The notes under the pieces were generated by a model. That model ran no database searches. It saw only the letters and a program-made list of their open reading frames with translations, and was not told the origin of the DNA. A stretch of 63,370 nucleotides of DNA, the filler included, from Kipferlia bialata (Eukaryota), in NCBI GenBank assembly GCA_003568945.1. It is 6 parts of 6 records of this genome, joined end to end, with 100 filler letters (N's around TTAATTAATTAA, not from the genome) between each part and the next. Parts side by side here need not be neighbours in the genome. Positions count along the whole stretch, not along the records: positions 1 to 10,505 come from BDIP01001412.1; 5 more parts are not named here. One strand, 5' to 3'. Positions within the stretch are counted from its first letter, which is position 1; each line of letters opens with the position of its first letter. Of the stretch, positions 1 through 52,758 are shown piece after piece. The position numbers were made by a program, and so were the translations under genes.

Positions 1-622
1 TTTTGTTTTTATGTTTTTCCCCCCCCCCCCCCCCCCCCATTTTGTCTTTCTCTCATATGTGGCCCCAGAGGTATGTGCACTCATATTATCTGGGTACTGT
101 GTCTATACGGGGGGGGGCATCTTCCCATAGTTCTAGATCGGTCTCTCTCTCTCTCTCTCCCTCCCTCTCTCTCAATCTGTATGTCTCTCTCTCTCCCAAC
201 CTTCCCTATTTCATACATCCGCGTTCGACCCATATACTATCCATCCCCCTCTCTCCTCTCTCTCTCTCTCTCTCTCCTCTTTCCATTTTCCTCTCAAGGT
301 CAAAGACGAGAGTATGCTCTCTCTCTCTATTCCTCTCCTACTGTCATTTAAGTACTCTCTTACCAGTTCTATCAGTACTTTCCCCCCATCAGGGTCACGA
401 GACACCAAGGGTGACTCTTACATTACCATTCTTACATTATCTCTCCAGGACAACAATACGCTTCTCCCTAAATGACACTCACGTCTATCAACCATCAACT
501 CCCAGGTCAAGAGGCAGGCCAAGGGTGACTGTGACCTATATAGCTATACCCTATGAGCAGTATAGTTATATATGTATATATATATATATATATCAATTAC
601 CCATCTATCCATTAACTCCTAG

Positions 623-3600
623 GTCAAGAGACAGGCCAAGGGTGACTGTGACCTCCTTGTCCTACCCGAGACATGCCTGACAAGGGGAGGGGGGAGGGAC
701 GCAAGGGAGCAGGTACAGTTACATTGAATGGTGTATTTGCATAGTTAATACACCCAGTGTATATATTATTGTGTAAATATTAGGGGGGAGGGACGCAAGG
801 GAGCAGGTATATATACTGCCAGATGATAGAGTGTATATACATATTGTATATATGTGAATACATGGGAGGGTGGGTGATGCGAGAGACGCAAGGGAGCAGG
901 TACATTTACAGTGAATACAGTAGCTTTGCAGTATCAGTATCAGGACCGATACTGTCCTATGTGTGTGTATGATGTCACCCACCCCAGTCCCGTGCCTTCA
1001 CCGAGCACTTTGTTATCTTAGTAACCACCCACTTTATATATGAATTTTTGTGATATATGGATACTATTCCATTGTGATTAACCCACCCCAGTCCCGTGCC
1101 TTCACCGAGCACATCCTATATGTATCTTAATTATAGTTCTTGCTTCTCATTATTATTATATGTCCCTGACCCCCAGTCCCGTGCCTTCACCGAGCACATA
1201 CTATATGTATCTAATCATATAGTTCTTGCTTCTCATTACTATAACATGTCCCTGACCCCCAGTCCCGTGCCTTTACTGAGCACATCCTGCCCTCTCTGTC
1301 TGACCTGGCCAAGTCACTCAACACACCAGTCATAGCACCCATACTGAGGTGGGAGGATGCTATACATACAGACTCATACCTGTATATATAATGTATATAG
1401 TATACATTATATACACATTTCACTCAACACACCGGTCATAGCACCCATACTGAGGTGGGGGAGTCTATACATATGTGTTGTTAAATTGTGTCCCACGTCC
1501 ACCCCCAACCCCCAGACCCCTCCCTACCTGTATATGTTTTTCCATATTATTGTATATGGATATCCCTGTATGCATATATGTATGTATTATTATACTGGTA
1601 GTGTCCCACCCCCAGACCCCTCCCCGCCAACCGTGCCCCCACTGTCCTACCCACATTCACCAAGGACTCACCTTACATACACAAAGCAGGTGATACTGAT
1701 ACTGATACATATAGAAAGCAGGTATTATGAATGGGTGCATACATATACTGATACTGATACATACACAAAGCAAAGGTACCATGTGTGTATAGCAGTTTCG
1801 GACCTTCGCCCTATGCCCCCCCCCCTCCCATACTCCACTGAAGATATCTCTCTCTATTTATGTTGATATCCACTAAACCCAGCCCCCAAGGAGCTCCTCC
1901 TCAACACCCAGCTGGTCATCCACTCCATTGATGATACATATATACAGATAGATATATATATATTTATTTACTATAACGATATCTACTGACCCTAGAGCCC
2001 AAAGAGCTCCTCCTCAACACCCAGCTGGTTATCCACTCCATTGATGATACATATAGATATGTATAGATACAGACATATATACTATAACGATATCGACTAA
2101 CCCCAGAGCCCAAGGAGCTCCTCCTCAACACCCAGCTGGTCATCCACTCCGATGGCAGTCTGTGTGCTGCATACGACAAGATACACATGTTCGAGCTCAT
2201 ATCAAGTGCGTAACCAACATACCTCTCCTCGTAGTGAATGGGTGTGTATTCTTCATTCCCTGTCTCACCCTCAGCCGGTCCCGGTGGCCACTCTGTCAGG
2301 GAGAGAGACACATACGAGCCAGGTGACCACCTGACAGCGGTGAAGGTATGGGGGTAGTATATATCTGCTCTTCATTGTGCAAATTACTGTATATGTATAT
2401 TTATTCCACCCATTGTGTATATATTACCATCTCACCCCCAGCTGAAGGGCTGGAACATTGGTCTGACCACGTGTTATGATGTCAGGTAACAGTTTCAAGA
2501 ACTTGAATTATACACAGTAGCTGTTATGCATATCCTCTCTAACCCCATGTTCCCCGAGCTGTACCGCATGTATATAGTGCATGAGCATCTAACTTGAGTT
2601 ACATATGTATATATGCATTGTAGATGCATATCCTCTCTAACCCATGTTCCCCGAGCTGTACCGCCTGTACCAGGCCCAGGATGATATTGACGCATTCACA
2701 GTGTGCGCCAATTTCACAAGGTCAGATCATGTACATACACCCATGTCTCGCTAACCCATATCTTGTTATGTCTCTTCCACGTTAGCTGATCTAGTGCTAC
2801 TGATGATACTTTTGTTCCATGGATGTATGGTTGTATACACCAATATGAAGCAATACGCAGTCTACACTCTAACTCCCTAGGTTCACCGGCCGTGACCAAT
2901 CTCGGTATCAGTGTCATCATTCTGATATCATACTGATACTGGTACAATGCATATATACACATTCTACATATATATATATACTCTAACTAAATAGGTTCAC
3001 CGGCCGTGACCACTGGCACACCCTGCTCAAGGCAAGGGCCATCGAGAACCAGGTGATGGCACACTCTTAATCACTTACCAACTACTGTACTGATACTGGT
3101 GATCTCATCGCCCTCACCCCTCAGTAGTATCTGCTAGCCCCCATCAATGTATGTCTATTATAGTATAGTATATATGTGTATATATATCAGTGTATCTATT
3201 ACCTTATCTCTAGGCCTATGTCCTTGCCCCCAACCTGGCTGGTGACAATGCTAGGTCGGGACTCGGCTCGTACGGACACACACTCGGTGAGGATCTGGAG
3301 TATGATATTCGTTGTATTTGACTGTTTCTTCTTACAGTGTCTCAGTGTTACAGTGTCTCAGTCTCTCTAACCCTTCAGCCGTTGACCCCTGGGGCAGTGT
3401 GGTGTCAGACCTGGGCACAATGCCAGAGGGAGTAGGTATAGGACTGCATGGAGTATATGTACACACATATATACACACATATATATATGTATGTGGCCTG
3501 GGTACAATGCCAGAGGGAATCGGTTTTTTCTATTGTGCACAGTACATGGATATTGTCGTTGATCTATGTAGTACACACTATTATATATATATATCAGACC

Positions 3601-3809
3601 TGGGCAACGTCAAAGGGAATATGTATAGGGATAGTATAGCAGTTTTTAGGTTGTGCCAAGACAGAGAGTCTCCACTATTATTGAACATTGGTATGTTAAG
3701 TGTATACTGACCTCTAGGCATGGTGACACTGAAGAGAGAGGAGATGGACAAGGCAAGGCAGAAGCTGCAGAGCGTCAGGTGGGGGCACACTGTGGACGAT
3801 GTACCTCTC

Positions 3810-3848
<39 letters not shown>

Positions 3849-4005
3849 TTTGCATAGGGCATCTCATTCGTTGGCAAGCCCACCTAAACTGTAACTGTGC
3901 CCTCCTGTGCTCTGTATTCATCTCAGGGACATCACCCTGATCGACAAGGCCAAGCCCCCTGGCTCTGGTGCCCCATACCCACTCTTCACAGCAGACCTGC
4001 ACTGA
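623..4005 (+). CDS. Carbon-nitrogen hydrolase (nitrilase superfamily, Nit1/deaminated glutathione amidase-like), multi-exon, 5' partial
   Basis: Manual splicing (exons include 623-712, 1263-1348, 1616-1689, 2107-2205; last exon ends TGA 4003-4005) gives DLLVLPE (catalytic Glu), NTQLVIHSDGSLCAAYDKIHMF (Lys), IGLTTCYDVRFPELYR (Cys), TGRDHWHTLLKARAIENQAYV, SYGHTLAVDPWG. All are canonical Nit1-branch motifs in the expected order with consistent intron phases. Confidence 0.93.
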
Positions 4006-4390
4006 TACAGACTAGATGCATACTTGCACTGTTACTATTGGACGGCATTATGTTGGAGGCAGACCTGCACTGAAGCAGAGACATGGTGCTGTGGTTCAGA
4101 CGTGCACTGATGTCATGTTGATATTGTGACAGTGCTGATACCGATACCCAACGAGTTGATCGCTGATTGTGGAAGGGGTAAAGCTGAGTCCGTAACCGAC
4201 TCGGTGACTGGAAGTTGAGGAAATATATATTTGTGAATTCGGTTATTCGTCTCTTGTGGTGTGCCTTGTGTTACAATGTCACAGTGACATTGATATGCAA
4301 AAGTGAAAGGGGGTTGGATCACTAAGCACATTTGCCCACTTTGAAAGTGTGACTTTCTGTGACTGCCTCTCCAACACACTACCCTGTACC

Positions 4391-4620
4391 ATGTGGGTGG
4401 TTGTGGCACTGGCTCTGTGCATATGCATGGCCCTAGCAGGTGTGCCTCCCAGTGGCTTCCTGACTTCCATCAACCAGAGGGCACTCCAGAAGATAGAGGA
4501 CGCCTTCCTGCCGCTGTGCGTTGTATCATGTACTTGTTATGTTGTATGTATATGTATATACTGTAACACCTAGATTGACTGTGAGATATAGTATGTATTC
4601 CTTCCACTGGAAGTGTACGC

Positions 4621-4660
<40 letters not shown>

Positions 4661-7600
4661 CCCATCCTCTCTCCACTCTATACTGCTACTCCTCTGTTCA
4701 TCCACTCTTCACTCACACTCAGGCTAGAGGCCGAGCTGACCCACATCGACGTGCCAGACATCCAGGTGAGTGTATTTTCAGTGTATGACTGTGTATATCT
4801 CTCTCATTATACATGCTCTCTCAGAGAGAGTCTCTCCCCACATTACTGATCCCTTTTCACAATACTTCCCAATTGCTGTCAGTTAATATCTCTCTCTCTC
4901 TCTCTCACTCCTATATATACTCTCTTTTTCTATATAGTGTTCTCTCTCTTTGCTCTCTCTCTCTCTCTCTTCCCTTCTCTCTCTCACTATCTCACTCCAG
5001 CTCAAGGACCCCTTCACCATAGACTTCACGGAGATCGACATCACAGGTGGGTATTTGTATACATATTCATCTATAGGCACTGCCTATTAGGCAGCTTCTG
5101 ATACTGATACTAACATCGACATCACACTGTGGAGTATATTAATTATTGTACATATATTATTAGGTTGTGGTAAAAGGGAGGGCGAATTCGATATGATACA
5201 GGAATTCTGAATCTAGTAGATCTCCCCGTTCCTCCAGTCACCAGCTGGGGCATACTTACTTCAGAGTGTGTAGTAGTCTCTGATACTATATGTATAGTAC
5301 ATCTTATACCATCTGACCCTCCAGTCACCAGCTGGGGCTCCCTCAATGTCAGCTTCAATGACGATGGGGGTATCCACGTCTTCTTCACAGGGTTCAGTCT
5401 GGTCGGTACGGTATACGTGTATATATGTACATGTATGCATATTGCATGTATATATATTCCTGTATTGATTTCTACTTCACAGTGTTCAGTCTGGTGGGTA
5501 GTACCCACTGGGACGGAAGTAATTCATTGCTCTAGGTAGTATATAGATATATCATAGTGTCTATATAGTATAGACTACCCCAGGCTGGATGAAGTGGCAA
5601 GATACCTATATATTATGTGTATATCATATGTACTATATATCCTTTCAGATGTAACCCCCAGGCTGGATGAAGTGGCACTACAAGGACTGGGTGTTGGTGT
5701 CCTATGTACAGGACAGTGGCACGGCCACCCTGGGGTGTGAGGACAGCACGATTGGGTTCCACCTAGACCTGACTGATACATTTGGGGAGTTGACAATGAG
5801 GTATGTATATGTATAGGAGTGTATATATATGTATGGTAGATAGAAGGTTGAATATGAGTGATACTGATACCTTTGACAGCGAGGTCAGTATATCAGTATG
5901 TCAGAGTGTTGTTTCAGTTTATACAGTATAGGTACTGATACGGACACATTTGGGGAGTTGACAATGAGGTATGCATATGTATATCAGAGTTTATAAATAA
6001 TATACATTCATGTATAATAGTGATTCTGACACTGATACCCCTTTGACTGACCCTCAGGGTGTCCCACATGCACAGTGACATTGGGTACATCAGTATATGT
6101 ATGATGGAGTNNNNNNNNNNNNNNNNNNNNNNNNNNNNNNNNNNNNNNNNNNNNNNNNNNNNNNNNNNNNNNNNNNNNNNNNNNNNNNNNNTTATGTACT
6201 TACTATGAGGGTGTCCCACATGCACAGTGACATTGGGTACATCAGTGTGGACACACACGGGTCATGGGCACGTACGTGGAACCAAAGCCTAGACATATGT
6301 ATTCTTCATTTACATATATATATATGCACATATGTAACCATGTGTGTTACAAGCATGACCACGTACGTGGTAGAGTGGTATAGTGTACTATATATTGCTG
6401 GTACCACATACGCAGCCTTCATTTATTCATATATCCCCCCTCCATTCCAGAGTGGATATACGTAGCCATCATGATGGTGGAAACGCCATCTCAGTATATA
6501 TACATGAGTGGATATATATATATATAAATATATGTAGTCTTCACCCATATATATATACATATACACTAACACCCCAGAGTGGATCTATGACGACATCATC
6601 AAGGTTGCCGAGCCCTCTCTGAACAAGAGTGTGCAGGATGCCCTCAACAGTGGCATACCCGATGCGGTGGATGGCATAGCCAGTGGTGTGCTGAGTGAGA
6701 TCAACTGGCTGGCACCCATCGACAACCACGAGTGAGTGAGTTATTACTATACCATAGTTAAGCCTTACTATATAGTGTATACGGGTGGGTACTGGATGTG
6801 TGGGCTAACCCATCTCTCGTATCCAAGTGATACACATTGCCTCACTCCTAAAGTCTGTGATAGTGTCTCTGGTCAGGACACGCCAGAGTGTCATTACACG
6901 TCTACACGCATCTAATATATCCCTCTCTGCCCCTCACCCACAGAGTGGTTGACATGCACCTGACGGTCAGGTCCTGACCACCGACCCTGTTGTGTCACAG
7001 GACGTGGTGGACATATACTGGCTGGGGCAGTTCAAGTGCGGCAGTCATATATATGATACTATTTGACATGTGCAACTCATATACTACTATAATGTATATA
7101 TGTATAAGGATACACAATGTAGATGCTGGCTGGGGCATTTCATGTGCGGCAGTCATATACTCTATGCGTAATGATGAGAGACTCAAGAGTATTGAGAGCA
7201 ATCCAAAGTGGTTTCCTGTATGTATACTCACTGTTACCCCGCTGACCCCAGATGCGGAGATGACCCCTCTAGGCATACATATATATGTGTATGTGTTTAT
7301 GTGTGTATATATTATTATTTATATAGGTATATATGATATATAATATATCTCCCTGACCCTAGATGCACCGATGGCCCCTTTGGCCTCATTCAGTATCAGT
7401 ATCAGTATCATATATATACATGTATACACCTACATATATCATATTACCCCACCTCTGACCCCAGATACACCGATGACCCCTTTAGCCTTGTTGAACTGCC
7501 GTCTGTAATACCCAGTGTGTTTGGACATGACGGCAGCGCATATGACATTGATATAGTGGTATGTGCCTTGTATGTATGTAAATATATGCATACATGTCTG

Positions 7601-9517
7601 TGATCGCATTCCCCACCCAGGGGACTGGGGCTGTGCCCTATTCCATGCACTCCCAGTGTTGATATGCATGTTTGTGTATATATATGTATATATATATGTG
7701 TGTGTGTATATACCATGTATGCGTATGTCTCCTCTATATAACCCCAGGTGACTGGGGGGGTGCCCAACTTCATATGCGGTGCCAGTAGTAGTGTATATGA
7801 AAATTTATACATGTATATACATATGTGTGTATGTGTGTATACTTATATACACGTATATGAATGTATCTAACCCACAGGTGACTGAGGACGTGCCCAACTC
7901 CATGGTGGCAGTGGCAGTCCAGAGGGGGCAGCTGGTACGGGGTGTATATAGATATAGATATAGTGTGCATGATATCCTGTACCTTTACATTCGTGTATGG
8001 AGAGGGGCAGCTGGTACGGGAGGATAGAGCATGAACCTGAACAGAAGACTGTGTAAATTTTGAAAGAGGTTACGATTCTTCTGTCTCGTCTAAGAATGTT
8101 TGCCTTACCGCACTTGAACTATATCACATGGTATGTACTACATAGTAGCACTTGAGTCTTTCCATCCCCACCTTCTTCCTCACCAATCAGAACTTCAACA
8201 TCACCAGTGAGGATCTAGGCGGGTTCCTTGAGATCCGGTATGGCCATGTCTGTAATACCCTAACCTTGCGCTGTTCATTCATGTCCTATGTCTTATGTGT
8301 CATCCTTGGGTATCAGTTTCAGTATCTATATACATACACATATTCCGCTGCTCTCTTGCGTTGGTAGTATTCCTCGATATCCCCCACCCTTTTACAACCT
8401 GTCCAGGTCCATACCCTGAACGCCGCTATTTCTCATACCAGTACACTGTCTTCTTACCCTCATTGTAGCAACCTGCCCCACCCCAGCAACCTGTCCATGT
8501 TCATGCCGTGTCTCAGGGACCTCTTCCCAGATGACCAGATGGCACCCTTCTACCTGTACCTAGAGCCAGTAGGAGTGCCGAAGGTGCACTTTGACACTGA
8601 CACAGGCATCACTGTGGATGCATCTGGGTGTCTCTCTGCACTGTACAGTGATGGGTATGAGGAGTATGACCTGTTTGGTATGGATATTGACCTGTCATTG
8701 AGTGCAAGGCCAGAGATATTCAGCAACTCAACAGGTGTGTAGATGTGTGTATTGCTGATGGGTGTATGTGACAGACGAGTTGCATCTTTAGTGTCAGTGT
8801 CTGACCCAGAAGTGTGTGTCCAGTGTCAGTATCATGCATACATCAGTGTATATAGTGATATATATGTTGTATTTCCAGTGTCTGACTGTATCTAACCCAG
8901 ATGTGTATGTCCACTATCTAGTAGACACTGATACTGGTATACAATTTATATATGTGTATATGCACCTCATATGTCTCTGACCCAGATGTGTATGTCCTGG
9001 CCACCCTAGGGGTAGAGAGTATGGACATCACTAAGACACACTTCCTGTGTGACATGATAGACTTCCAAGGCATAGAGGACCTGGTCAACTCACTGTTTAT
9101 GGACCTGATAGTGCCAGTGTGGTGAGTTCAGAAGTATCTCTCTATTCATCCTAAGACATCTGGGTCTATGTCTCTTTTACTCTTCATGGACTTGATAGTG
9201 CCTGTGTCGTGAGTATCACATCTTCTGTGTCTCCTAATGTGTATGTTTGACTCTATATATGTTAATTCATTCTAACTCAAGGAATGCTCTCTTCAAACAG
9301 TATAGCGGCATTCCGCTCATACCATATGTCATTACCAATATACGTGTACCTATACTCATTACACAACTAAATACCTAGTTACCCCAGGAATGGTCTGTTT
9401 GAGGAGTATGGCGGCATCCCCCTCCCCATGCTGCCTGGGGTAGAGCTGGTAGACCCTGCATTCCTGTATGGACGCCGGATGCTGCAGATAGGCACAGACT
9501 TCGCCATCAGTGTATGA
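4391..9517 (+). CDS. LBP/BPI (TULIP) family secreted lipid-binding protein, multi-exon; contains a 14-nt frameshifting insertion at ~6965-6978
   Basis: ATG 4391 with signal peptide MWVVVALALCICMALAG, then GFLTSINQRALQKI, LTHIDVPDIQ, WHYKDWVLVSYVQDSGTA, HGSWAQWIYDDII, VTEDVPNSMVAVAVQRGQL, and C-terminal GGIPLPMLPGVELVDPAFLYGRRMLQIGTDF; TGA 9515-9517. This matches the two-domain BPI layout. Confidence 0.85.
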
Positions 9518-10505
9518 TGTATAGCATGGGATGGGTGTATGGAGGGACTGCTCATTGCAGTCCTCCATCAGCATATGTTGTGTGCTTGTGTAGTGGCTAT
9601 GTAACAGTCTGAGTGGTCACTAGTAGTAGTGTGTGTTAGTGTTGTTGGTGTTAGCCTTAGATCTAGTGCCTCTCTCTCTCATACGTGGTACATTTTGGAT
9701 GTGCTACTGTGATAAGAGATGGTAGTGTATAATAGACAACTGTGTGTGCAGCAGTCTAATGCCGTGGTTAGATATAGTCCTCACTGGTGGCATATGCCGC
9801 TTATGTCAACGCAAGTTTACCATGTACTTACATTCTAATCACATCAGCAGCCCAATAGGGTGGGGTCGATATACATTGTAACAATACAGAAAGCTGAGTG
9901 GTCTAATAGAAATGTGTGTCTGAACCTCGGCCAGTATGAATCATAATGATAGAGTGTCAGAACGTGTTGGCCAGATGCAATGATCCGCACTGATGATTGG
10001 ATTGGTTCATTGAAACGCATCTCTCTTTGCAATCATATCAAACAGTAGCCATATGCAGTCCTGTGTGAAGCTGTTGATCGGACAGGTGTGTGGATGTTGT
10101 GTTTGGAAAGTGGATGTGATATGTGGTGCTATGTGCTAGAGACCCGGTTGCTCAGATGCCCTTCATTCTCTGTATATCTGCCCCTCATACCTACAGTGAA
10201 CCCTGCTCTCTACACTCATTATGTCCCCTTTCCACCTCCACTGGCTCATTTATAAATACAGATAGTCCCATATCACTATATATCAGGGTTGAGTAGGTAT
10301 CCGTGAGATACGGTTGTGTGGATATACATCTATATACGAAGTCCTATTAACCTCTGTCTTGGTCTGAATACCCACTATATCGTCTTGTATGCTCATGGAG
10401 CGGATTCCAGGCGGCCTACCTCTCTCTCTCTCTCTCTCTCTTTCTCTCTTCCCCCCCCCCCCCCCCCCCCCCCCCCTCCCCCCCCCCCCCCCCCCCCCCC
10501 CCCCC

Positions 10506-10605
10506 NNNNNNNNNNNNNNNNNNNNNNNNNNNNNNNNNNNNNNNNNNNNTTAATTAATTAANNNNNNNNNNNNNNNNNNNNNNNNNNNNNNNNNNNNNNN
10601 NNNNN
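10506..10605. other. Artificial scaffold spacer
   Basis: N44-TTAATTAATTAA-N44 (stops in all six frames); identical 100-bp spacers recur four more times. Confidence 0.98.
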
Positions 10606-10669
10606 GTGGCTATGGCCCATACATAGCCTCAAGAAGTACATTCCCCCCCCCCCCCCCTCTGACCCCCAG

Positions 10670-11406
10670 TGGCGCTGTCAATCTGTTTGACAAGGACAAC
10701 AAGAACGGGGGGACGCTCAGGACACTCCAGGTATGGATATAGTGAATTATGTATAATGATGTGTATGTATAGAGATGTATATATGTGTGTATACTAGCAG
10801 CATACACCCACCCCAGGGCCTGGACTCTGGCAATGAGGCTGTGTCCGGCATGGTGTTCGACACATTCCACAGGTGTGGAGATTAATATCGATATAGTATA
10901 TGATATATGGTGATATGATATATACCATATATATATAGATTGTGCATGAGGCTGTGTCCGGCATGGTGTTCGACACATTCCACAGGCATGTAGATATTAG
11001 TATTGAGTATATAGAGGTTTGCATATGAATGTATACATAATATATCTGCACTGCTTCTAACCCTTAGGCTTCTCTTTGCCTGCAACGGGTCCTCCCTGTG
11101 TGCATGGGATGTAGTTGACACACAGGCACACACACCTGTCGTGTCAAAGCCACTCGGTACGGGACATATGCATACGTCACTCTTAACCTCTCTCTCTCTG
11201 TCTCACCCTCAGGTGCCTGTGCTCTGTCTGTGTCTAGACTGTACTGTATATGTATATTGTATATAATTGTATGTATATATATATATATCTATATATACAT
11301 CTGTCTCTCACTATAGGTGCCTGTGCTCTGTCTGTGTCCAGACTGTCCTCTGAGGACACCCAGGGAGAGGGAGAGGTCACACTCCTCGCAGGTGGGGAAC
11401 ATTGTC

Positions 11407-11438
<32 letters not shown>

Positions 11439-11992
11439 GAGAGGGAGAGGTCACACTTCTGGCAGGAGATGGCTGTTATATATATATATATGTAGTCGAA
11501 TCAAAGGTCTTTTCCGCGACTTCAATGCTACCCTAGGGGGTTGGATGCGGAGATGGCCGTTTCAGTTACACTATGACACACCGTGACTCTGCCTCTATGT
11601 ATGTCTCTCTGTCTGTGACGCTGACCCCTCAGGCTGTGGGGATGGCCGTGTCTTTGTGTACAGCGTCGAGTACACACCCGCATTCCACAGGTAGGGAGTG
11701 GTGTATATATGTAGTGGGAGGGTATATGTGTGTGCAACAGTGTATCAAGCTATCGTTCCACGTGTGGGGACTGCTTGTGTTGGTGATGGATCAATCGAGA
11801 GTGAGTGTTTCTCTGAGAGGGTCTACTCCTGTTCTGTATATCTACTGTATATACCTATCCCCTCTGACCCCATGACCACTCTGTCCTCATACCTTGGCAC
11901 ATATCCTATGAATACACACACACACATATATGTATATATTTATATTAATGTGTGTGTATCCTCTCACCCCAGGGCCACGCTGTCCTCCTCCC

Positions 11993-12025
<33 letters not shown>

Positions 12026-12153
12026 ATACCTCTCTCTATGTACCTATCTCACCCCAGGGCCACGCTGTCCTCCTCCCACCCCCCCATCACAGCTGCACAG
12101 TCACCCATCGCAAAGATCAGGTATGGTAGATGTATGTGCATAGATATCTATAT

Positions 12154-12184
<31 letters not shown>

Positions 12185-12467
12185 ACGTGTCATTGACGGC
12201 CTACTTGTTTATAGGCACAGTCACCCATAGCCACTATCAGGTATGAGAGATGTATGTGTGTGCACAGATCAATGGTTTCCCCCTTGAGTCATGTCTCAAT
12301 GCATATATGTCTTAATATATAAGTATGAGTATATATGTATATGTCTCTGCCTCACCCCCAGGGGTCCAGCTGCCCCCCACCTGGGCATCTCCATCATAGT
12401 GGCACAGGACACAGTCAACTGCGTGAGGTAGGGTATTGTATACATAGATAGTATGTATATATAGATA

Positions 12468-12507
<40 letters not shown>

Positions 12508-12668
12508 ATCATAGTGGCACAGGACACAGTCAACTGCGTCAGGTATATATATATATATATGTATATTGTATATATATATATATATATATATCCATCATAG
12601 TGGCACAGGACACAGTCAACTGTGTCAGGTATGGTATATATATAGAGAGAGAGAGAGTGTGTGTGTGT

Positions 12669-12712
<44 letters not shown>

Positions 12713-27500: not shown

Positions 27501-28932
27501 CATGTACAAGGCATAATAGTATAGCTACAAAACACACTTCATTCCATTCATACCTAGCACCTTCTGCATGAGGAAGTAGTACTCAGGACAGTGTCTTAAA
27601 TGTATGTACATTCATGTATCTAATATAATCACCGTGTATACGTAGTATATATACACACATAAATGTACCTAGCACCTTCTGCATGAGGAAGTAGTACACT
27701 GGGCTGGGGGTGTAGTCAACGACATTCACAATACACTGAGGGTAAGAAATAGTAGAATATCCACTATATCATGTAGTATAACATGTCCACAATGTAATGT
27801 ACAATTATAATTATGTAATATACAATTACACTCGTGAATATATATTGGGTGTAGTCAACCACATTCACAACGCACTGAGGGTGAGACATAGTGCAACGTT
27901 CAATATATATATAATACTAGACTAATGAATTTTGAATATTCGAGTATTGATACCTCGTATGTGTTATCCGAACTTGACACCACTGAGATATGTCCCATAC
28001 ATTATGTACTAATAGCATACTAATAATGAATGTGGAATCTTCGACTATATTGTAAATATATGCACATATGTATGAATACATAAATACCTCGTATGTGCTA
28101 TCCGAACTTGACACCACTGAGACATCCTTGCTGACCACATTGGCAACGATACTGAAGGGTCAGACATATATAGCCATATATTGTATATAGATAGATTTAG
28201 ATTTAGATAGATTTAGACATAGATAGATAATGTAATAACATACAGAGAGACAGAGAAGGAGGGGGAGAGAGAAAGTTACTGGAGAGACAGAGAAGGAGCG
28301 GGAGAGACAGAGAGAGAGAGGCGAGAGATAACCAACATCTATCCATGGAGGTGGTATAGAAGGGGGAAGAGAGGGTGAGGGAGGGGGGGGGGGGTTAGAT
28401 GGAGATACGGGGAGAAAGGTGTGTGTGTGTGTGAGATGGAGACACGGGGAGAGAGAGTGAGGGGGGGTGAGATGGAGATACGGGGAGAGAGAGAGAGAGA
28501 GAGGGTGAGATGGAGATGCGGGGAGAGAGGTGTGTGTGTGTGTAAGAAAGAGAGGTACCTTTCCTTTAGGTGCAAGGTGCATAGATGAAGAGAGATATGG
28601 AGACAGAGAGAGAGAGAGATTTACCTTTCCTCTGAGATCAAGTCGTTGAGGTCATGGTATCTGGCCGAAAACTGGAGTAAGAGAGATAGGATAGGGAGGG
28701 CGACTACTGGTCATAGAGATGAATGTATGAACGTCTCCTCGAGCATATCCCTAGTGCTTGAACCTATATGTCCATGCATCAATAAATATGTACACTACAT
28801 GCCTGTACCATCTGTATACGTATATACATATGGATATACTGTACCTGTATCATCTGGATGCCATACACCAGTGAGCACCAGAAGGCATAGAAGAGCACAG
28901 TCCCGAGGCAGCTGCCCTTGTTCTTGTTGGCC

Positions 28933-28934
<2 letters not shown>
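24584..28934 (-). CDS. Uncharacterised two-transmembrane protein with Cys-containing luminal loop and low-complexity Pro/Tyr-rich tail
   Basis: ATG at 28934 (MANKNKGSCLGTVLFYAFWCSLVYGIQMIQ, TM1); loop ...CIVNVVDY...AEEFCNEFQAGQSVVVYT...CDTSYDNGPC; TM2 VLHFICGWTLCLSFPVTITCLIVYP; tail ends DQADSAFHY with TAG at 24584-24586. About 11 exons with consistent phases. Confidence 0.75.
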
Positions 28935-28975
<41 letters not shown>

Positions 28976-29100
28976 GTTCCCTGCCTCTCTCTCTCTCCGC
29001 CTTAACTCACTGAAAGCAAGGGTTACTCAGTACCCTTCTAGCACAGTAGATCTATGGCCTATATATAGACTGCCAATCAGTGTCCAATCAAGAAGAAATT

Positions 29101-29143
29101 CGGTATGGAGGGGACTCGAACCCGAGACTTCGTGACTCTGAAG
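29101..29143 (-). pseudogene. tRNA-like 3'-half fragment (B-box/T-arm)
   Basis: Minus strand reads CTTCAGA GTCAC GAAGTCTCGGG TTCGAGT CCCCT CCATACCG followed by a T-rich run. The T-loop is clear, but no matching 5' half (D-arm, 5' acceptor GGTATGG) is found nearby. Confidence 0.35.
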
Positions 29144-29381
29144 CTGATACATCATCTCACATATAGATCTAGGGTCTCATATGAAGATTTTCATTTCTAG
29201 TTTGCTCCAGCCTTCGACATTCCCTTTACAAGCTTCACGTGTTCAAGCGTACAATCGCATTAGGTAACACACTGACACTTCTTCTCCATATTCATAACAT
29301 CTGATTCATAAGAAATCTATTGCTTCACATAGGGTCCAATCGCGACGATTGATTCAAGGATTGATTCAATGATTGATTCTG

Positions 29382-31579
29382 TCACCGCTTACACACTGCA
29401 TAGTCCTGGTTGTTGTATTCATAGGCCATGTGGACATTCTGGAGTCAGATGCATAAGAGTTCAAACACTCCAACAAGCAACCAGAAACATATACAGATGA
29501 ACACAAGAAATATCTGCAAATCGGTTCGAATTAGTAAATACAAAAATGTGCACGAAGAAATATAGCGGAAAAGTGCATGTATAGTCGTGTACCTTATTGT
29601 TTTTCTCCCCTGCCCAACATGCGAATCTGTCAACATGTTCTCCCACATAACCCCTTACAACAGAGCTGCCATCGAAGAAGTCTCGAAGGTCATCAACAAT
29701 CTGTGTTTAGAGGGGGATAAACATACAATACTTATACATATATATATGTATATATATATATATACTCTGTCAAAGAAGTCTCGAAGGTCATCAATAGTCT
29801 GAGAATAGAGGGGGAGAAACAGAGAACATCGCATATATCAAAGAGAATAGAAGAATTGATAGGAAACATACATGATAGTTGTCTGCCACAAAGGACAGGT
29901 GCAGTATGACTCCATCAAGTGCAAATGGACATAGAATATACCATGGATACCAGTATATATAACTACAATGTCTCGAATACATCAATAACTTACATGATAG
30001 TTGTCTGCCACAAAGGACAGGTGCAGTATGATGGTGTCAAGTGCAAATGGACCATCTCCGTCTACTGTCTGGTTGATCAACCAGCGCATGTCCTAGGGTA
30101 AATATGTATACTATTACATGTGTAACCAGAGAGATACAGCAGAGTACTAGGTTGGTTGATCAGTCTTTGCATGTTTCAAAGAAGACTCAAGATGATTCAA
30201 GAGTACCAGCCTCAAAAGACATGTAAAGATCTTCCCTTCTCACCTCCCCTTCTACAACTACCCCATTGAACATGAGTTCCTTATTAGTATACCTACACCT
30301 AATATATTCATTATACACTATTCAAAGTATAAACATAGGATGTGTATAACTAAGCATATCTACCCTTACCTCCCCTTCTAGTATGACGCCATTGAACATC
30401 AGTTCCTCCACTCCAGCTGTGTCCGATAGGGTCTGATATGAGAGAATATATAGATATAGAGGAACTGCAGTTCAAATAGTAGATAGATGGAACTACTCAC
30501 CAGAAGTCCGAATAGTTCATCCATCGGAATCACTGGTTTGCAGTAGTCACCTGAGGTCAGAGATGTAATATACTCTATAAGAATACGCAATCAGTGTGTG
30601 TCTCTTGCAGTAGTCACCTGAGTTAACGGAGGTAGGTAATACTAACACAGATATTCAAGAACAGAGCCATATGATACGTTATACCCTCTCACCCCCTCGC
30701 CAGTATTATGATGTCTAGGGTACTATGTAATGTACTCGTACCATACATATATGTGGTATTGTTAGACGTACCCACTATGGCCAGTCTTGTGATGTCTAGT
30801 GTGTCAAACAGAGTGTGCAGGAGCAATGGAAGTGTCCTTGTGTTACACTCTATATCATGTATATATACTACTTCTAGAGATATATCGATAAGACTGGTGT
30901 GTCAAACAGAGTGTGCAGGAGCAAGGGGAGGGTCCTAGGGGTGAGGAAAATTCTTCTCGGAGATATGTTGTAAATAGAGGACAGAATACTTGATTGTCTA
31001 TATATATACTGTATCTATATTTCGGAGACACATACTATTCACAAATGTATCCATATAATTATGATACCTAATCTCTTCGTCTGATGTCCTATCTCCCTCC
31101 CCATAGTGGGCAGTGCGGTTACTGATGGGACTGAGGTTGAGCAGGACATTGGTAGCACCGTTATAGTCACCGGCCTGAGGTCAGTGGGAAGGGTACAACA
31201 TATATATTCTCAATAATTATATTATCAAATGAAGTTTGTCAGACGATGCTGGCACCATTGTAGTCAGCTGCCAAAGGTGAGAGGGTAACCCTATTATCAA
31301 CACTTGATACATACTACATCTATATACAGAGGGATGAATATATGAATATATGTATATATATGTATATACATGCATACATATGTATATATCCCATACCCCA
31401 TATATCTGCATAGTACATAGCGTATGTGTGGGAGGAGGACAGATACAGTAATCACAACCACACACACACACATATATATAAGGAGTAATATACGTATATA
31501 TACACATACTACTTACCACTATCTCTGCGTAGTACATGGTGGATGTGTGGGCGGGGGTCAGATGGATAACAAGGTCAGG
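29382..31579 (-). CDS. Hypothetical protein, multi-exon, 5' partial
   Basis: Eight phase-consistent exons: PDLVIHLTPAHTSTMYYAEIV / AGDYNGATNVLLNL... / TLPLLLHTLFDTLDITRLAIVGDYCKP... / ...IILHLSFVADNYH / IVDDLRDFF... / NVHMAYEYNNQDYAVCKR*; stop at 29382-29384. No family recognised with confidence. Confidence 0.7.
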
Positions 31580-31672
31580 CTGGGTTAGTATTGTAGATAA
31601 TACATTGTAATAGACATTTGTAAATGAAAGGGGGGGGGGGGGGGGGGGGGCCCCCGGGGGGAAAGGGGAAAA

Positions 31673-31772
31673 NNNNNNNNNNNNNNNNNNNNNNNNNNNN
31701 NNNNNNNNNNNNNNNNTTAATTAATTAANNNNNNNNNNNNNNNNNNNNNNNNNNNNNNNNNNNNNNNNNNNN
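31673..31772. other. Artificial scaffold spacer
   Basis: N44-TTAATTAATTAA-N44. Confidence 0.98.
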
Positions 31773-32166
31773 AGTCCTCCTCCCCCCCCCCCCCCTTCCC
31801 CCCCCCCCCCCCCCCCCCCACCCCCCTCCCTCCCCGTCTTCATTAACACTCACCTACCTCTCTCTTGTGTTGTATGAATATGCAGCATCGTGTATCATAC
31901 CGTATCGGCGGTGGGTTGTGTGGACTGTTGTTCCATTCTCTCTCTCACTATGTATACTAGTAGCAATCTCTCCCTGGTCTCTCTTCCTCCACCACCCTCT
32001 CTCTATACACTTATCTGCCTAGTCTGCATCTCATCCCCAAAGTCTCTGAGCGTCCACTTCCTCTCTCTCTCTGGTTACTCTCCCTCTATGTCACATATAT
32101 AAAACCCCTTAGGTCTCTGACCGTATGTATTATCTCTCTCTCTCCCTCTTCTCTCTTATCCCCTAG

Positions 32167-32293
32167 GTCTCTGAGCGTCTGCTCCTGCTGTTGCTGAGGA
32201 AGAACTTCAGCAGCAGAGAGTCGTCCAGACTCACAGACAATGAGCTGGAACTCTTAGGTATGTTTCTCTATAAGCTAATGTACCTATGTGTAT

Positions 32294-32326
<33 letters not shown>

Positions 32327-34404
32327 AACTCATAGGTGTACTGATCCTATTCAATACTATAACTGAAATTATTTGATATACTCTCTCTGAAAGAGATAGT
32401 ATGTGCCTGACTCCAGTGTCTGTGCGTGAGAGTCTAGGGGAGACCACCTTCCAGCAGTACGAGGACAAGGCAAGGTATATATATTGCGAATAATATATGT
32501 AAATATATATATATGTATGTGTGTGTGTGTGTGCAATACACCTTCCAGCAGTACGGGGAAGGCAAGGTATACATGTAGAGTATGTATGGGTATATACGTG
32601 GTCTACTCTTAATCTGTATAGATATATTAATTCATATGATACCATCCAGCAGTACGAGGACAAGGCCAGGTATCTTAACTTGGAGTATACTATGTATATA
32701 TATACATTGGGATTACCCGTACACTCTCTCACCCTCCCAGGACCATGCGTGCTGACCTCCGTCCCCTTGACAAGAAGGTACTCTCTCTCTCTCTCTCTCT
32801 CTGCCATTACTACAGAGATACGGGGAATGAGTGTCCCCCCCCCCCCAATCCTTCACTATCTTGCAGTATGTTTCACCTTATTCACTGTCTTTGTACTTAT
32901 GCTGTATGCGTATGTGTTTCTGACTCCAGGTCCGCAAGCGCTATGAGAGACAGGAGGCCGAGGAGTGTAGGTTGGTGTATGTGTGTGTATATATGTAGTC
33001 TTTCACTGATTGTATATATATCTAATTGTACATGGTTTCTGACCCTCAGCGGTGAGCTTGAGCGTGTCCTGCGTATCCTGGAGGAGTCCAAGAGGGGAGA
33101 TGAGAGCAGGGAGAGTGAGAGGGGAAGCGACTCCCCACCTGAGAGAGAGGCACCTGTAGTGGATGAGGAGATGGAGAGAGAGAGAGAGAGAGAGAGACTC
33201 ATGGAGGAGGAGGAGTTCCACTTTGCACCACCCAGGGTATCATCCATCGCTAGGTATGTGTAGAAGTATGTATATGTATAGTGTATACTATATACTATAT
33301 ACTATATACTGTATACTATATTCTATATACCACCCAGGGTGTCATCCATCGCTAGGTGTGTGTATGAGTATGTAGGGACTGAGAGTCTGTTTATAATGTC
33401 TTTTCAATATCTATGTTGCCCTTAGCCTAATCTCATTCACAGGTCTGACGAGCCCGATGCTGCACAGTGTTAATTAACTCAATAGTACTTTCATAAGTTC
33501 ACTTTTATATAACGTCAGTATATAGTATCTCTTATCCTCTCAGGTATGTGTATATATACTACTTGTTTATAGTTTATGTATATCTATATATCTTATCCCC
33601 CAGGTCTGACGAGCCCGATGCTGCAGAGCGTCTGCAGAGAGAGAGAGACGTAGCCATAGAGAGAGAGGTGGCAGCCATCAGGTGGGGGTTGCATGTAATG
33701 ATTGATAACTGGGGTGAAATCATACCATGGGTATAGACAGGGAGAGAGAGAGAGAGATAGGTGGCAGCCATCAGGTGGTATATATATATACATTGTGGTA
33801 ATATTGTTAAGTTATGTTAAGTATCACTATATATGCAATAACTGACCTCAGGGAGAATACCGGAGTCGAGGTCGAAACAGAGATAGAGAAGGAGAGGGAG
33901 AGAGAGGAGGCCTGGGCGATGGAGGCCCAGATTGAGAGGGAGAGAGAGGCAGAGATGGAGAGGAAGAGGGAGAGAGAGAGAGAGGCTGCCGAGCAGAGGG
34001 TGTCAAATGGCGGTGTCACTGAGAACGTCATTGTCTACAACGACAGGCCCCAGGATGGTGAGTCATAGTCATTATTGTCATACTGTCTGATATCCTCCTA
34101 TATATATACTCATTCACTATACTCACCCTAGGCTCCCTCCCCTCTGTCACCCCCTCCACTCCCGTACATTATGAAAAGTACTTTCATACATCTTATCCCT
34201 TCTGATATCAGGCTCCCTCCCCTCCGTCACCCCCTCCCAGCTCAGGTCTGACACACTGGCAGTGTACGTGCCAGAGGGGTATGCTGATGCAAAGGTATTG
34301 GTACTGTAGATATATACTATTGATACAATTAGGTATCTCCTATATATCTGCAGAGTCACTCCCAGGCGCTTGTCACCGTCAGCGTATTCATTATATATAC
34401 ATTA

Positions 34405-34438
<34 letters not shown>

Positions 34439-37400
34439 TGTACTTATACCCAGTCCCTAGTCACATCCAACCCCCCCTTGGCCTGTGAGATGCTGGTATC
34501 CTATAGCCAGGAGTGCACAGACCTCAAGAAGAGGGTGCACTACTTGGAGGCACTGCTAACTGAGGAGGTATAGTGTAGATACATGTATATATATATATAA
34601 GAGTATATATATATACAGCCAGGAGTGCACAGACCTCAAGAGGAGGGTGCATTACTTGGAGGCATTACTAACTGAGGAGGTAATACTTTTTGATCAATAA
34701 CATCTGACTACAGGATATTCAGTCATTCATTAAACTCCCTACACCCCACGTCCCCACCTGTGTGTCAGACACTCATATTTATACATTTGTATTTATAACA
34801 TTATTCATGTATTTAGAGTTGTGTATAACATATCCATGACCCCAGGTCCCCACCCTGTGTGCCAGACACGAGACAGAGACACACCGGATGAGGCAGGTAT
34901 GGAACAATATTGTATATACATATATATATATATATATTGTATATATATATATGTCTACATGCCAGTATATGAGACACAGTATATATGGATATACTCTATA
35001 CTAGATATATTCTCTCTGGATATACATGTACATGTACATATATACATACATGTAGAAACACACAGGATGAGGCAGGTGTGGAACAATTATTATTAGTTAT
35101 ATATATATATATATATACATATTAAGAGAGAGAGAGACAGAGATAGAGACACACAGGATGAGGCAGGTATGAGATATATGTATGTAGTATAGTGTGGATC
35201 GTTGTATAAAAACCTACAGTTATATACTAGTGCCTTGCTAAAATACCTGACCTCTGGACAAGGATGCCTTTCATATCAGTTGATATATATATCAGTATAT
35301 GCATCTGTATATATATATACTAAATATCAGTACATACACTTTCCCCCAGGACTACGATGCCCTGATATATGTTAATGTACATCTATATATCAATATGTGT
35401 AAGTATATATGCACACACACATATATATAAACATATGTATATATGTGTGTCTATAGTGTATATACCTGACCCCCAGGACTACGATGCCCTGATATATGTA
35501 AGTATATATATATATATATATATGTATACATGAATATGTATATATCTGATATATATAGAGGTGTATATACCTGACCCCCAGGACTACGATGCCCTGGAGG
35601 CACAGCTGGACGAGGCTCGCATACAGGTATATCAGCGTATCTCCATTTCTCTGCCATATTCCTTCTACAAATACCTTCTCTAACCACTACTGGTATAATT
35701 ATTTGATACCTTATACATAGAACGCTTCCTCCCACCAGAGGCCAGACATTGATATATATGAACTACTTCGTATGAAGAAAATCTTTTGGATCATCAGACC
35801 AGCTATAAATATATCTCTATGTTCTATTATTCTTCATTTACTGATACTAATAAATGACTATTTCCTTACACCCAGAACGCTTCCTCGCACCAGCGGCTTG
35901 TGGATGAGACCGAAATGCTGAGGAGACAGCTGGAGGGGAGGGTGGCTGAGGTATTGTATTTCGTTAGGCTCTGTTTCATTCTCACCCCAGGACTCGTGTA
36001 AGTATGTTTATCTATTGGTTGTGTTTCTCTAACCCCCAGGGTGTAGGCATCCACTCTGGGGCTGCAGCTGTGATGCTGGAGGCAGAGAGAGCCAGGGCAC
36101 ACTCAGAGGGTATGTATTCGTCTATATATATGTGTCAGTATATACATGTCATTATATACATGTATAGTATACCAGGTATACATAGAAGAACATAGTATGA
36201 TACTCAACCCCAGACACTGCCGAGAGGGCAGACCTGGCATATATATATATATATATATATATATAAGTACATACTATATATACATATAAATGACTATTTA
36301 TATTTGTGTACTACGTTTGTACGTTTGGTATACTATATCCTTACTCATATATCACCCCAGGCTCCGCTGAGAGAGCAGACCTAGCACGGGCTGAGCAGAG
36401 GCTGGAGCAGGTGTGTCTTTTAGAGAGTTGTAGTATTCTACTCTCTCTAACATACTTGAACAAGGTCACATTATTGAGCATTCTACAATATATATATATA
36501 TATATTATAGTTCTGCATGTTATCTAACATCAGCTGTCCCATGAGCTCCAGGCCAATCGGTCTTCCTCTTGTCATATTGTTGAGCATACTCTATATACTA
36601 TAGATATATATGATCATATATATGTATAGATATGTCAATATACATATAACACCTAGCTGTCCCACGAGCTCCAGGCCAGCCGGTCTGTACAGAGGCAGTT
36701 GGCAGAGGCCGAGGAGCACATCACGGTGCTGCAGGGTTAGTGTTTCTTATGAATACATCCTATACACATGGATTTATATGTATATACATATGTATGTTGT
36801 ATCTATACAGAGACAGCTGGCAGAGGCCGAGGAGCACATCAAAGTGCTACAGGGTACTTAAGGTTTTGTACACGGATGGGTATCTCTATTCCATCGTATG
36901 TATACTGAGTAACATGTGTGTACTGAGTAACATGTGTATACAGAGCGTGTGTGCAGAGAGATACTGATGCCAGGTGACCTCTCTGACTCCCAGAGGCGGG
37001 AGAGAGAGATGACATCCGCCCTGAACAGTCTGGCAGAGGTGGGGTGGATATATATGGATGTATACATATTATACTATATATTATACTGGGAGAGGTGGGA
37101 GGCATATATATGTATATCTGAGTACGGTGCAGAAGAGCTCTCTCACCCCTCAGGTCCTTGCAAATAATGATCCTGAATCCTCTGCGTCTCTCTCTCTCTC
37201 TCATCCCCACACTCACCCATTAGGTCCTTGTGACTGATCAGGCTGACCCCTCTGCCTCTCTGCTAGGCACAGCCAAGGCCATGGTGCACAGGCACAGGGA
37301 GACAGAGGTGCGTATATTTATAGTCATATACGGATGGTGGTATGTACGTATATTTTTACATATAACACTTGGTCAACGGTGCACAGAGGGACAGAGGTGG

Positions 37401-37641
37401 GATTGTCTTTTCTGTTTTGCTCTGTATTAGTGTGTTTTCCCTGATGTCCAAAGCAATTACTCTCCCTCCTCCGATTCAGTGTCTCAACGATTGTCGATTC
37501 TCACCCTCTCATTCTCATACATATATGTGTATGTCCTCCTATACGCACATGTATATATACCCTAATATCCAGGCCAAGCTGCACCGTAGCACTGCTGCCC
37601 TGGGGTACCTCTCACAGCAGTGCCAGGACATTAGGTGTGTA

Positions 37642-37686
<45 letters not shown>

Positions 37687-40666: not shown

Positions 40667-40707
<41 letters not shown>

Positions 40708-42114
40708 TTGTATAACTTTGTGTGGTGCCTATATCTATATACATACCTGATGAGTGCACTGGGACCTACGGACCTTGCAACAACTAGGTGTGTGTTTATA
40801 TATGTATATATAACTATATGTGTGTGTGTAGATGTTACCCTGGTGCCTATATCTATATACATACCTGATGAGTGCACTGGGACCAACATACCTGGCCACA
40901 ACTAGGTGTGTACAGTATGTATTATTATATTATATTATTATTATAATTATAATATTATATATATATATATATATATATTTCATTATACATTATGATTACA
41001 TTATACATACGTACATACTATACCTATATATGTTTTCTTTCATATATCGCACCGTCAACTCCCTTACCTATCAGCCTTGTGATTGTGCTTGACATTGTGA
41101 TCCCATGGTATATGCAAGATATTCTAACATATCTATATATGTATATATCTTCTCATATGAGTGTGTAGATGGACTCTTACCCCTCAGCGTTGTGATCGTG
41201 CTTGACATTGTGATCCCCTGCACCACTGGGGCAGAGGGAGAGAGACAGGGAGAGAGAGAGAGAGAGCCCCAGCAGCACAGGGTGGGCAGGGTGTCCATGG
41301 CCATCCTACCAGACTCAGACGCGGTTGTTACAGGTATGTTTATGTATATATATATATTTATGTATATATATATATATACTATCTCATTCAATATAGTCAT
41401 ATGTATGGTAATATACTGATAAGTGTCCATGGCCATCCTGCCAGACTCAGACGCTGTAGTGACAGGTACAGGGGCATTGATAATAGTTAGTTAATGAGAC
41501 ATATATAGGTGGTTATATGACTCTCCTCCCGGACTCAGACGCTGTTGTTACAGGTACAGGGGCATTTATAATAGTTAATGAGTAATATATAGGTGGTTAT
41601 ATGGCTCTCCTGCCAGACTCAGACGCTGTTGTTACAGGTATGTAAATTTGTATATGTTGATATACCTATATATATGCATAAGTGTGTATATACACTCACT
41701 AACCCTCCAGGCAAGAGGGGCATTACGGCTGTGACCGATGTGGTATCTGCCATAGTCAGTGGGTCAGCATTCATACCACACAGGTTTGTGTATCTATAAT
41801 GTAAGGAAATATTCTTATCTTCAATACATACAGTACTGGGATGAATTGTAGTGTGAGTGCATCTGCTATAGTCAGTGGGTCAGCATTCATACCTCACAGG
41901 TATGGTAGGGTATGTACATTATATGTGATTATAGTGTTAGTAACCTGGGGAGGACATACCCAACGTCAATGTATTTGGTAGTACCAGGGTAATATCTTTG
42001 TGTACTTTGTATCCCAATCCTCAGGAACTCCAAGCTGACCTTCCTGCTCAAGGACGTCCTGACCCCCACCTCCTCCATCCACTTCATGGTGCACGTGCCA
42101 GTGGATGTGTCTAG
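32167..42114 (+). CDS. Kinesin-like protein with long coiled coil and degenerate C-terminal motor domain (kinesin-14-like layout), partial at both ends
   Basis: Coiled-coil exons from 32167 to ~38810. The motor domain starts at 39013: GSVSVVGLCRG, SVLEGNDVCIFSYGPRASGKAATV (P-loop), MYLSGATKVAVTSADDL, VVSAIVSGSAFIPHRNSKLTFLLKDVL (kinesin L12/alpha5 signature). Confidence 0.88.
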
Positions 42115-42247
42115 GTATATACACACAATAGTATCTAGTGTATATACGTATTGTATATACACTTCATGGTGCACGTGCCGGTGGATGTGGCTAGGTACAA
42201 TGACACATACACTCTTGTATTGGTGTTTCATAGTTGATATACAAGCA

Positions 42248-51545: not shown

Positions 51546-51577
<32 letters not shown>

Positions 51578-52724: not shown

Positions 52725-52758
<34 letters not shown>

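What the first reader, a model, noticed from the sequence alone, without database searches (positions are those of the whole stretch)
290..2205. Strictly polarised arrays of decoy splice junctions around most exons
Seen: copies of branchpoint-AG plus the first 15-50 nt of an exon lie only upstream of the true exon (297, 391, 504 before 623; 985, 1088, 1173 before 1263; 1880, 1993 before 2107). Copies of the last 15-60 nt plus GT lie only downstream (783, 880 after 712; 1420 after 1348; 1760 after 1689). Fidelity and length often rise toward the real exon, and the missing part of each copy is replaced by (TA)n/(TG)n/(GA)n DNA. The architecture recurs in all six unrelated scaffolds and on both strands, and accounts for much of the intron length. 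Inference: repeated local tandem duplication of junctions is a main mode of intron growth here.
Basis: partly seen in the sequence, partly recalled or inferred. Interest (0 to 1): 0.8.

Follow-up and report, generated by a model that had tools for sequence, protein, structure and literature searches.

The report
Introns stocked with stranded allele ends
In the free-living protist Kipferlia, over half of all exons have unused copies of their start just upstream or of their end just downstream, and these copies differ from the working exon mostly at silent codon positions, so they are likely stranded ends of other working alleles left by faulty recombination, a possible record of genetic exchange inside one genome.

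Summary
Real and widespread. Of 180 curated exons, 103 have partial copies in a flanking intron: 76 upstream hits are exon starts, 96 downstream hits are exon ends, none reversed, none whole. Each copy adds about one intron length (104 nt); such units hold 44% of intron bases. Read-derived unitigs contain them; an RNA-type contig skips them. The polarity is simply the geometry of a break inside an exon, and the structure is known from single lancelet loci as 'mirages' (the scan also noted one in an urchin). Plain tandem duplication does not fit: copies differ from the live exon at 19.4% of fourfold but 4.0% of zerofold sites (ratio 5.4, CI 3.9-7.6; a dead copy allows about 2), copy-versus-copy differences are also silent-biased, and the spacers mostly do not align. 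The copies were therefore coding when they diverged. Best reading (inferred): staggered recombination between alleles about 12-15% apart at silent sites, anchored in the exon, tolerated because splicing pairs the innermost sites across each exon. No second strain was available to prove this.

The parts
297..310 (+). very short, decayed acceptor copy of exon 623 (below search threshold)
   Evidence: about 9 of 10 nt
391..416 (+). acceptor copy of exon 623 (AG plus 23 nt)
   Evidence: inside DNA unitig 286-558
504..537 (+). acceptor copy of exon 623 (AG plus 32 nt, one silent change)
   Evidence: inside DNA unitig 286-558
623..712 (+). used exon of a nitrilase-like gene (family name recalled from motifs)
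   Evidence: RNA-type contig covers it with no differences and joins 712 to 1263
782..808 (+). donor copy of exon 623-712 (25 nt plus GT), skipped
881..901 (+). second donor copy of exon 623-712 (19 nt plus GT), skipped
986..1008 (+). far acceptor copy of exon 1263, skipped
1090..1117 (+). middle acceptor copy of exon 1263, skipped
1175..1202 (+). near acceptor copy of exon 1263; differs from the used exon at silent sites only among shared positions; its spacer aligns
1263..1348 (+). used exon
   Evidence: RNA-type contig, no differences; loose end continues into exon 1616
1420..1456 (+). donor copy of exon 1263-1348 (35 nt plus GT), skipped
   Evidence: RNA-type contig goes from 1348 to 1616
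   Evidence: read by eye; skipped
1616..1689 (+). used exon
   Evidence: open frame; start seen as loose end of the RNA-type contig
1758..1777 (+). donor copy of exon 1616-1689
1881..1926 (+). far acceptor copy of exon 2107, identical to it over 42 nt; spacer upstream unrelated
1994..2039 (+). near acceptor copy of exon 2107 with two private silent changes (Lys, Val codons)
2107..2205 (+). used exon (by open frame)
280..62300 (.). the same architecture in 11 of 12 gene fragments on six scaffolds: 177 copies around 103 of 180 exons

Best explanation
The copies are unused exon ends that diverged from the live exon under protein-coding selection, and they are likely the stranded ends of other alleles, left when recombination between diverged homologous chromosomes was joined out of register. 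Shown: each unit is 20-55 nt of exon plus splice site and about 70 nt of intron, about 104 nt in all; differences follow the genetic code; silent divergence is near constant while amino-acid-changing divergence varies like an age. Inferred steps: (1) a break falls in or near an exon; (2) the end pairs with another allele through the exon, the main island of homology, and copies about 70 nt on into that allele's intron; (3) it is joined to the old exon end by microhomology instead of annealing, so the old end stays behind as a dead copy, upstream for acceptors and downstream for donors; (4) an existing copy can itself mispair with a live exon of another allele, adding a further unit with the same breakpoint (21 of 46 neighbouring pairs); (5) the product survives because the spliceosome pairs the innermost sites across each short GC-rich exon (exon definition), which also purges whole-exon copies. 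Whether the partner was an allele in an outcrossing population or a homeologue in a hybrid is open.
For: Fourfold 134/690 vs zerofold 105/2596 for the nearest copy at 128 junctions, corrected ratio 5.4, bootstrap CI 3.9-7.6; dead-copy simulation through the same detector 1.96-2.2, allelic baseline 0.15 gives 5.6. At twofold third positions silent transitions 7.5% vs transversions 2.7%; signal vanishes in shifted frames; holds in genes checked against public proteins (64/279 vs 43/1074), without CpG-prone contexts and at single-copy junctions, and in a fixed 15-nt ungapped window (68/281 vs 56/1068). 68 of 128 copies have no amino-acid change yet carry 84 silent ones. Copy vs copy 57/255 vs 48/955; private to nearest copy 15/173 vs 10/636. 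Silent counts fit a near-constant rate, amino-acid counts an exponential age; their rank correlation 0.14 lies below a shared-age model (0.32-0.61) and inside baseline-plus-age (0.07-0.41). Amino-acid differences are conservative (BLOSUM -0.05 vs -0.65). Spacers align in only 23 of 124. Copy sites score at least as well as the used site in 35 of 78 acceptors and 46 of 98 donors, yet the RNA-type contig uses the innermost sites at three junctions. Copies also follow a stop codon, where there is no splice site. PMC8516963 section 8: metamonads lack NHEJ; examined fornicates lack Rad51A and have two Dmc1; Dmc1 stabilises mismatched joints (abstract of PMC6719624).
Against: No second allele or strain was seen: three protein searches returned one member each. 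In 29 of 131 nearest units the intron side aligns for 35 nt or more, as a cis duplication would give, though these too are silent-biased (22/159 vs 18/599). Introns here may turn over fast, so unalignable spacers and the rarity of intron-only repeats (3 of 72 echo-free introns) are weak evidence. The joining step and the role of Dmc1 are untested. RNA support is one assembled contig over three junctions; the run's RNA label is a guess. The site-strength comparison gave copies the best of seven offsets, which favours them.
Confidence: 0.6

Rival explanations
1. Units arise by tandem duplication in cis; later ordinary allelic gene conversion or crossing-over replaces the live exon (and sometimes a copy), which creates the silent-site excess. 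This still needs exchange between alleles 12-15% apart at silent sites.
For: 29 of 131 nearest units have long intron-side similarity; similarity above control extends about 12-17 nt into the intron on average; 21 of 46 neighbouring copies share a breakpoint.
Against: Most spacers do not align even where the exon part is identical (5 of 26); the silent baseline is present in nearly all copies, including the least decayed, and in changes private to the nearest copy.
Confidence: 0.2
2. Plain repeated tandem duplication of junctions, copies dead from birth, no allelic exchange.
For: Explains polarity, spacing and the partial gradient toward the live exon.
Against: Predicts a ratio of about 2 for copy vs exon and at most 2 for copy vs copy; observed about 5 and 4.4; predicts correlated silent and replacement divergence and homologous spacers.
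Confidence: 0.05
3. The copies are under selection now, as back-up templates that convert the live exon or as parts of alternative transcripts.
For: Differences follow the genetic code and are conservative; three copies before 1263 could be read as in-frame mini-exons.
Against: Only 6 of 78 acceptor copies are followed by a strong donor, fewer than about 15 expected (p = 0.005); the RNA-type contig skips them; copies carry frameshifts and 3 stop codons; conversion frequent enough to select would also erase the 20% silent divergence (inference).
Confidence: 0.07
4. Whole exons were duplicated, both copies worked for a time as alternatives, then one decayed by half.
For: Would give silent-biased differences.
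Against: No whole-exon copy among 177 hits, and none of the two wrong-side classes that decay should also leave.
Confidence: 0.03
5. Assembly artefact: two alleles of a heterozygous genome laid in tandem.
For: Silent-biased differences are what mis-stacked alleles would show; the DNA run may be the source sample.
Against: Unbranched read-derived unitigs span 286-558 and 604-1006 with no differences at depth 448-465, across copy-spacer joints and the live exon; the run holds 97% of sampled 31-mers of 290-6000.
Confidence: 0.02

Closest known systems
Amphioxus 'mirages' (Adh3, TnC, globins BflGb6/BflGb9, PGBD5; PMC3087553, PMC3902484, passages read)
   Same: Repeats of an intron/exon boundary at either end, many with AG/GT intact, not disturbing splicing; found in a highly heterozygous species.
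   Different: Mirages are described at single loci as minisatellite-like whole-unit repeats (81-100% identical, concerted evolution, unstable length). Here they touch 103 of 180 exons, counts per junction are near Poisson, spacers mostly do not align, and copies carry a protein-selection signature; the word 'synonymous' does not occur in PMC3087553.
Human F7 intron 7 VNTR with silent 5' pseudo-sites (PMC1557585, abstract read)
   Same: Donor copies downstream of the exon stay silent although functional; position, not strength, decides.
   Different: One 37-bp minisatellite, donor side only, identical units.
Intron gain by tandem genomic duplication (PMC3265369, abstract read)
   Same: Local duplication involving splice signals changes gene structure.
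   Different: There the duplication creates a new spliced intron; here intron number is unchanged and an existing intron lengthens.
Tandem duplication by aborted synthesis-dependent repair with alternative end joining (recalled, no call)
   Same: Geometry: copied segment joined to the old end by microhomology.
   Different: The template is inferred to be a diverged homologue, not the sister chromatid.

Membership tests
mirage (amphioxus type) | repeats span an intron/exon boundary, at 5' or 3' exon ends | tested here: met
   76 start copies, 96 end copies
mirage (amphioxus type) | many copies keep AG/GT | tested here: met
   AG in 66 of 76, GT in 86 of 96
mirage (amphioxus type) | normal splicing is undisturbed | tested here: met
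   three junctions only; 107 of 109 exons agree with public protein models
mirage (amphioxus type) | minisatellite-like head-to-tail units homologous over their whole length | tested here: not met
   spacers align in 23 of 124; 29 of 131 extend 35 nt or more
mirage (amphioxus type) | length instability among haplotypes or cells | not testable with these tools
   no second strain found; contigs only
dead-on-arrival tandem duplicate | fourfold/zerofold divergence ratio to the parent about 2 or less | tested here: not met
   5.4, CI 3.9-7.6; null 1.96-2.2
exon-definition splicing | innermost sites across the exon are used over equally strong outer sites | tested here: met
   direct RNA evidence for three junctions
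exon-definition splicing | cross-exon pairing of spliceosome parts; no two-step removal via the inner copy-to-copy intron | not testable with these tools
   needs raw RNA reads or reporters
mutually exclusive duplicated exons | whole-exon copies with both sites | tested here: not met
   0 of 177

The most novel reading that the evidence does not exclude
A genome-wide mode of intron growth in which homology-directed repair between strongly diverged alleles, run by a Dmc1-only, NHEJ-less repair system, swaps in a new exon end and strands the old one; the introns of one isolate thus archive pieces of many former working alleles, giving evidence of genetic exchange and about 12-15% silent diversity in a fornicate from a single genome, and a natural library of matched decoy sites proving exon definition in a metamonad.
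Probability: 0.45. Interest if true: 0.85.

Novelty: new variant of a known kind. Interest (0 to 1): 0.7.

Why it matters
It names a process that supplies nearly half of intron length in this organism and is not transposon- or slippage-driven. The silent-site signature means two diverged working gene copies met in one nucleus again and again, which makes genetic exchange and diversity in a free-living relative of Giardia testable from existing sequence. It implies position-based, exon-anchored splice-site choice in a protist with short introns and a reduced spliceosome (87 of 174 proteins in PMC6679479, passages read). The same codon test can be run on lancelet and urchin mirages to ask whether they too are allele-derived. 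Practically, gene predictors will mistake some copies for exons.

Tried and rejected
No whole genome is held, so all counts are from this 63-kb window. Only 200-1370 could be laid on runs; parts without unitig cover (559-603, 1111-1370) prove nothing. No run is on record as RNA; X2 is a guess. Two metagenome scans found no relative. Paste-in of a whole foreign exon into the old one was rejected: both-sided exons are no more common than chance (28 seen, about 24 expected) and the two copies are not complementary. A triplet-register effect of the recombinase was rejected as the source of the codon pattern because twofold and fourfold third positions differ. Faster mutation in live exons alone was rejected. 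Two sources versus many alleles could not be told apart (13 of 35 multi-copy junctions have private silent changes on two or three branches, close to what drift would add). Targeting to junctions rather than random placement is not established: intron-only repeats are rare but decay hides them. Rows dropped: 7 of 177 hits (last two exons of gene E, uncertain frame; stop exon of gene A) were left out of codon counts; 3-4 introns with N left out of length counts; four donor copies at 21211-21555 whose exon lies off the scaffold were not counted. Ten literature searches showed no report of these copies in Kipferlia or of a silent-site test on mirages; the genome paper PMC5874029 has no occurrence of 'duplicat' or 'heterozyg'. 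Subscription papers, including the original Adh3 mirage paper, and all supplements were not seen. No tRNA genes.

Full report
Setting. The window is six scaffolds of about 10.5 kb joined by artificial spacers. Three protein searches returned proteins named Kipferlia bialata at 100% identity, each on a contig of the scaffold's length. A self-trained gene parser plus hand curation gave 180 exons in 12 gene fragments with open frames. Against public protein sequences, 107 of 109 exons tested agree exactly (13/13, 31/33, 33/33; 30/30); the other 71 exons are my models only. The genome paper says its models used transcriptome hints (passage). Exons are short (median 73 nt, 57% GC), introns 38% GC, with the branch-point A 7-8 nt from the exon start in 113 of 178 acceptors.

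Observation. Aligning each exon alone to its two flanking introns (threshold passed by 0.3% of foreign introns) gave 177 hits: 76 upstream, all exon starts; 96 downstream, all exon ends; 5 internal; none reversed, none whole. AG precedes 66 of 76 and GT follows 86 of 96. A splice-site-anchored scan confirms it with zero wrong-side or control hits at score 8. 103 of 180 exons have a copy. Copies are spaced by a median of 104 nt on both sides; introns without copies have a median of 103.5 nt, the residue after removing units 105 nt, and units make up 44% of intron bases. The exon part is mostly 20-55 nt whatever the exon length. Copies per junction are near Poisson. The gradient toward the live exon is partial.

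Not an artefact. Read-derived unitigs of run X1 cover 286-558 and 604-1006 without a difference at depth 448-465, across the joints between copies and spacers and across the live exon; X1 may be the source sample, but the joints exist in reads. Contig 5 of run X2 (RNA by guess) joins 712 to 1263, enters 623 from an off-window exon and leaves 1348 into 1616, skipping ten copies, and matches the live exons without a difference.

Polarity. An event with one break in the exon and one in the intron must leave the truncated start upstream and the truncated end downstream; this follows from geometry. What is informative is that such products survive. In keeping, about 41 whole-exon copies would be expected from random 104-nt placement and none is seen, and strong donors after acceptor copies are depleted (6 of 78, p = 0.005). 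Two-step removal through the inner junction is not excluded.

The unexpected result. A copy dead from birth mutates evenly while the live exon keeps only silent changes, so the fourfold/zerofold ratio should be about 2; simulation through the same detector gave 1.96-2.2. Observed for the nearest copy at 128 junctions: 134/690 (19.4%) against 105/2596 (4.0%), corrected ratio 5.4, CI 3.9-7.6. The pattern follows the code (twofold transitions 7.5%, transversions 2.7%), disappears in shifted frames, holds in publicly checked genes, outside CpG-prone contexts, at single-copy junctions and in a fixed ungapped window. Copies differ from each other the same way (57/255 vs 48/955), and so do changes private to the nearest copy (15/173 vs 10/636); the unit at 1994 is an example. 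Replacement differences are conservative and vary like an exponential age, whereas silent ones are near constant and barely correlated with them (0.14; shared-age expectation 0.32-0.61). The simplest account is a silent baseline of roughly 0.12-0.15 present when the copy died: both sequences had been working alleles. Silent divergence varies among genes (p = 0.015).

Spacers. Similarity to the flank of the live site fades within about 12-17 nt; the spacer aligns in 23 of 124 units and in only 5 of 26 whose exon part is identical; 29 of 131 align for 35 nt or more. This fits a spacer taken from another allele's intron, but fast intron turnover could also produce it. Copies after stop codons (4059, 23800-23870) suggest anchoring on coding homology rather than on splice sites.

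Mechanism (inferred). A broken end pairs with a diverged homologue through the exon, copies on into its intron and is joined out of register to the old exon end; existing copies then seed further unequal exchanges (21 of 46 neighbours share a breakpoint). Section 8 of PMC8516963 (read) reports no NHEJ in metamonads, partial or full alternative end joining, and loss of Rad51A with two Dmc1 paralogues in examined fornicates; the abstract of PMC6719624 reports that Dmc1 stabilises mismatched joints. This is context, not a test. I give 0.6 to this, 0.2 to cis duplication followed by allelic exchange; both need exchange between diverged alleles. No second allele was found.

Known relatives. An earlier scan note (e1-7787241) pointed to lancelet mirages; passages of PMC3087553 and PMC3902484 confirm boundary-spanning repeats that do not disturb splicing, described as minisatellite-like, mechanism unclear. 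The human F7 VNTR (abstract) shows positional donor choice. The present case shares the structure but fails whole-unit homology, is genome-wide, and carries the coding signature. Ten searches found no such report for Kipferlia; the library lacks most subscription papers.

Verdict. Observation confirmed; interpretation partly supported; new variant of a known kind; interest 0.7.

Noticed in passing
window 2486-2645 (+): Intron apparently ending in AT instead of AG; only this acceptor keeps the frame and the recalled nitrilase motif CYDxRFPE. Its upstream copy at 2549 also has CCAT. Not checked against RNA.
   Followed up: partly
window 61059 and 61291 (+): The frame-keeping donor is GC, as is the first copy; the distal copy has a canonical GT, so a weak inner site would be used over a strong outer one. 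Not checked against RNA.
   Followed up: partly
window 6944-7040 (+): Exon-like stretch in the BPI/LBP-family gene with acceptor, donor and its own donor copy near 7117-7150, but no single open frame; the public model P0001 skips it.
   Followed up: partly
window 23735-23880, 4059-4080 (+): Copies of the last codons plus stop codon downstream of the gene end, where no splice site exists.
   Followed up: partly
window 42934-43947 (-): Intron-free open frame of 337 codons in an intron-rich genome; no Pfam match, no metagenome relative.
   Followed up: partly
window 28370-28530: Intron-only minisatellite of a GC-rich 14-mer alternating with (GA)n/(TG)n; the one clear intron-only repeat among 72 echo-free introns.
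   Followed up: no
window 29100-29130: Short stretch resembling a tRNA arm fragment by eye; ARAGORN found no tRNA gene.
   Followed up: partly
window 21211-21555 (+): Four donor copies in a row whose live exon lies off the scaffold start; not counted.
   Followed up: no
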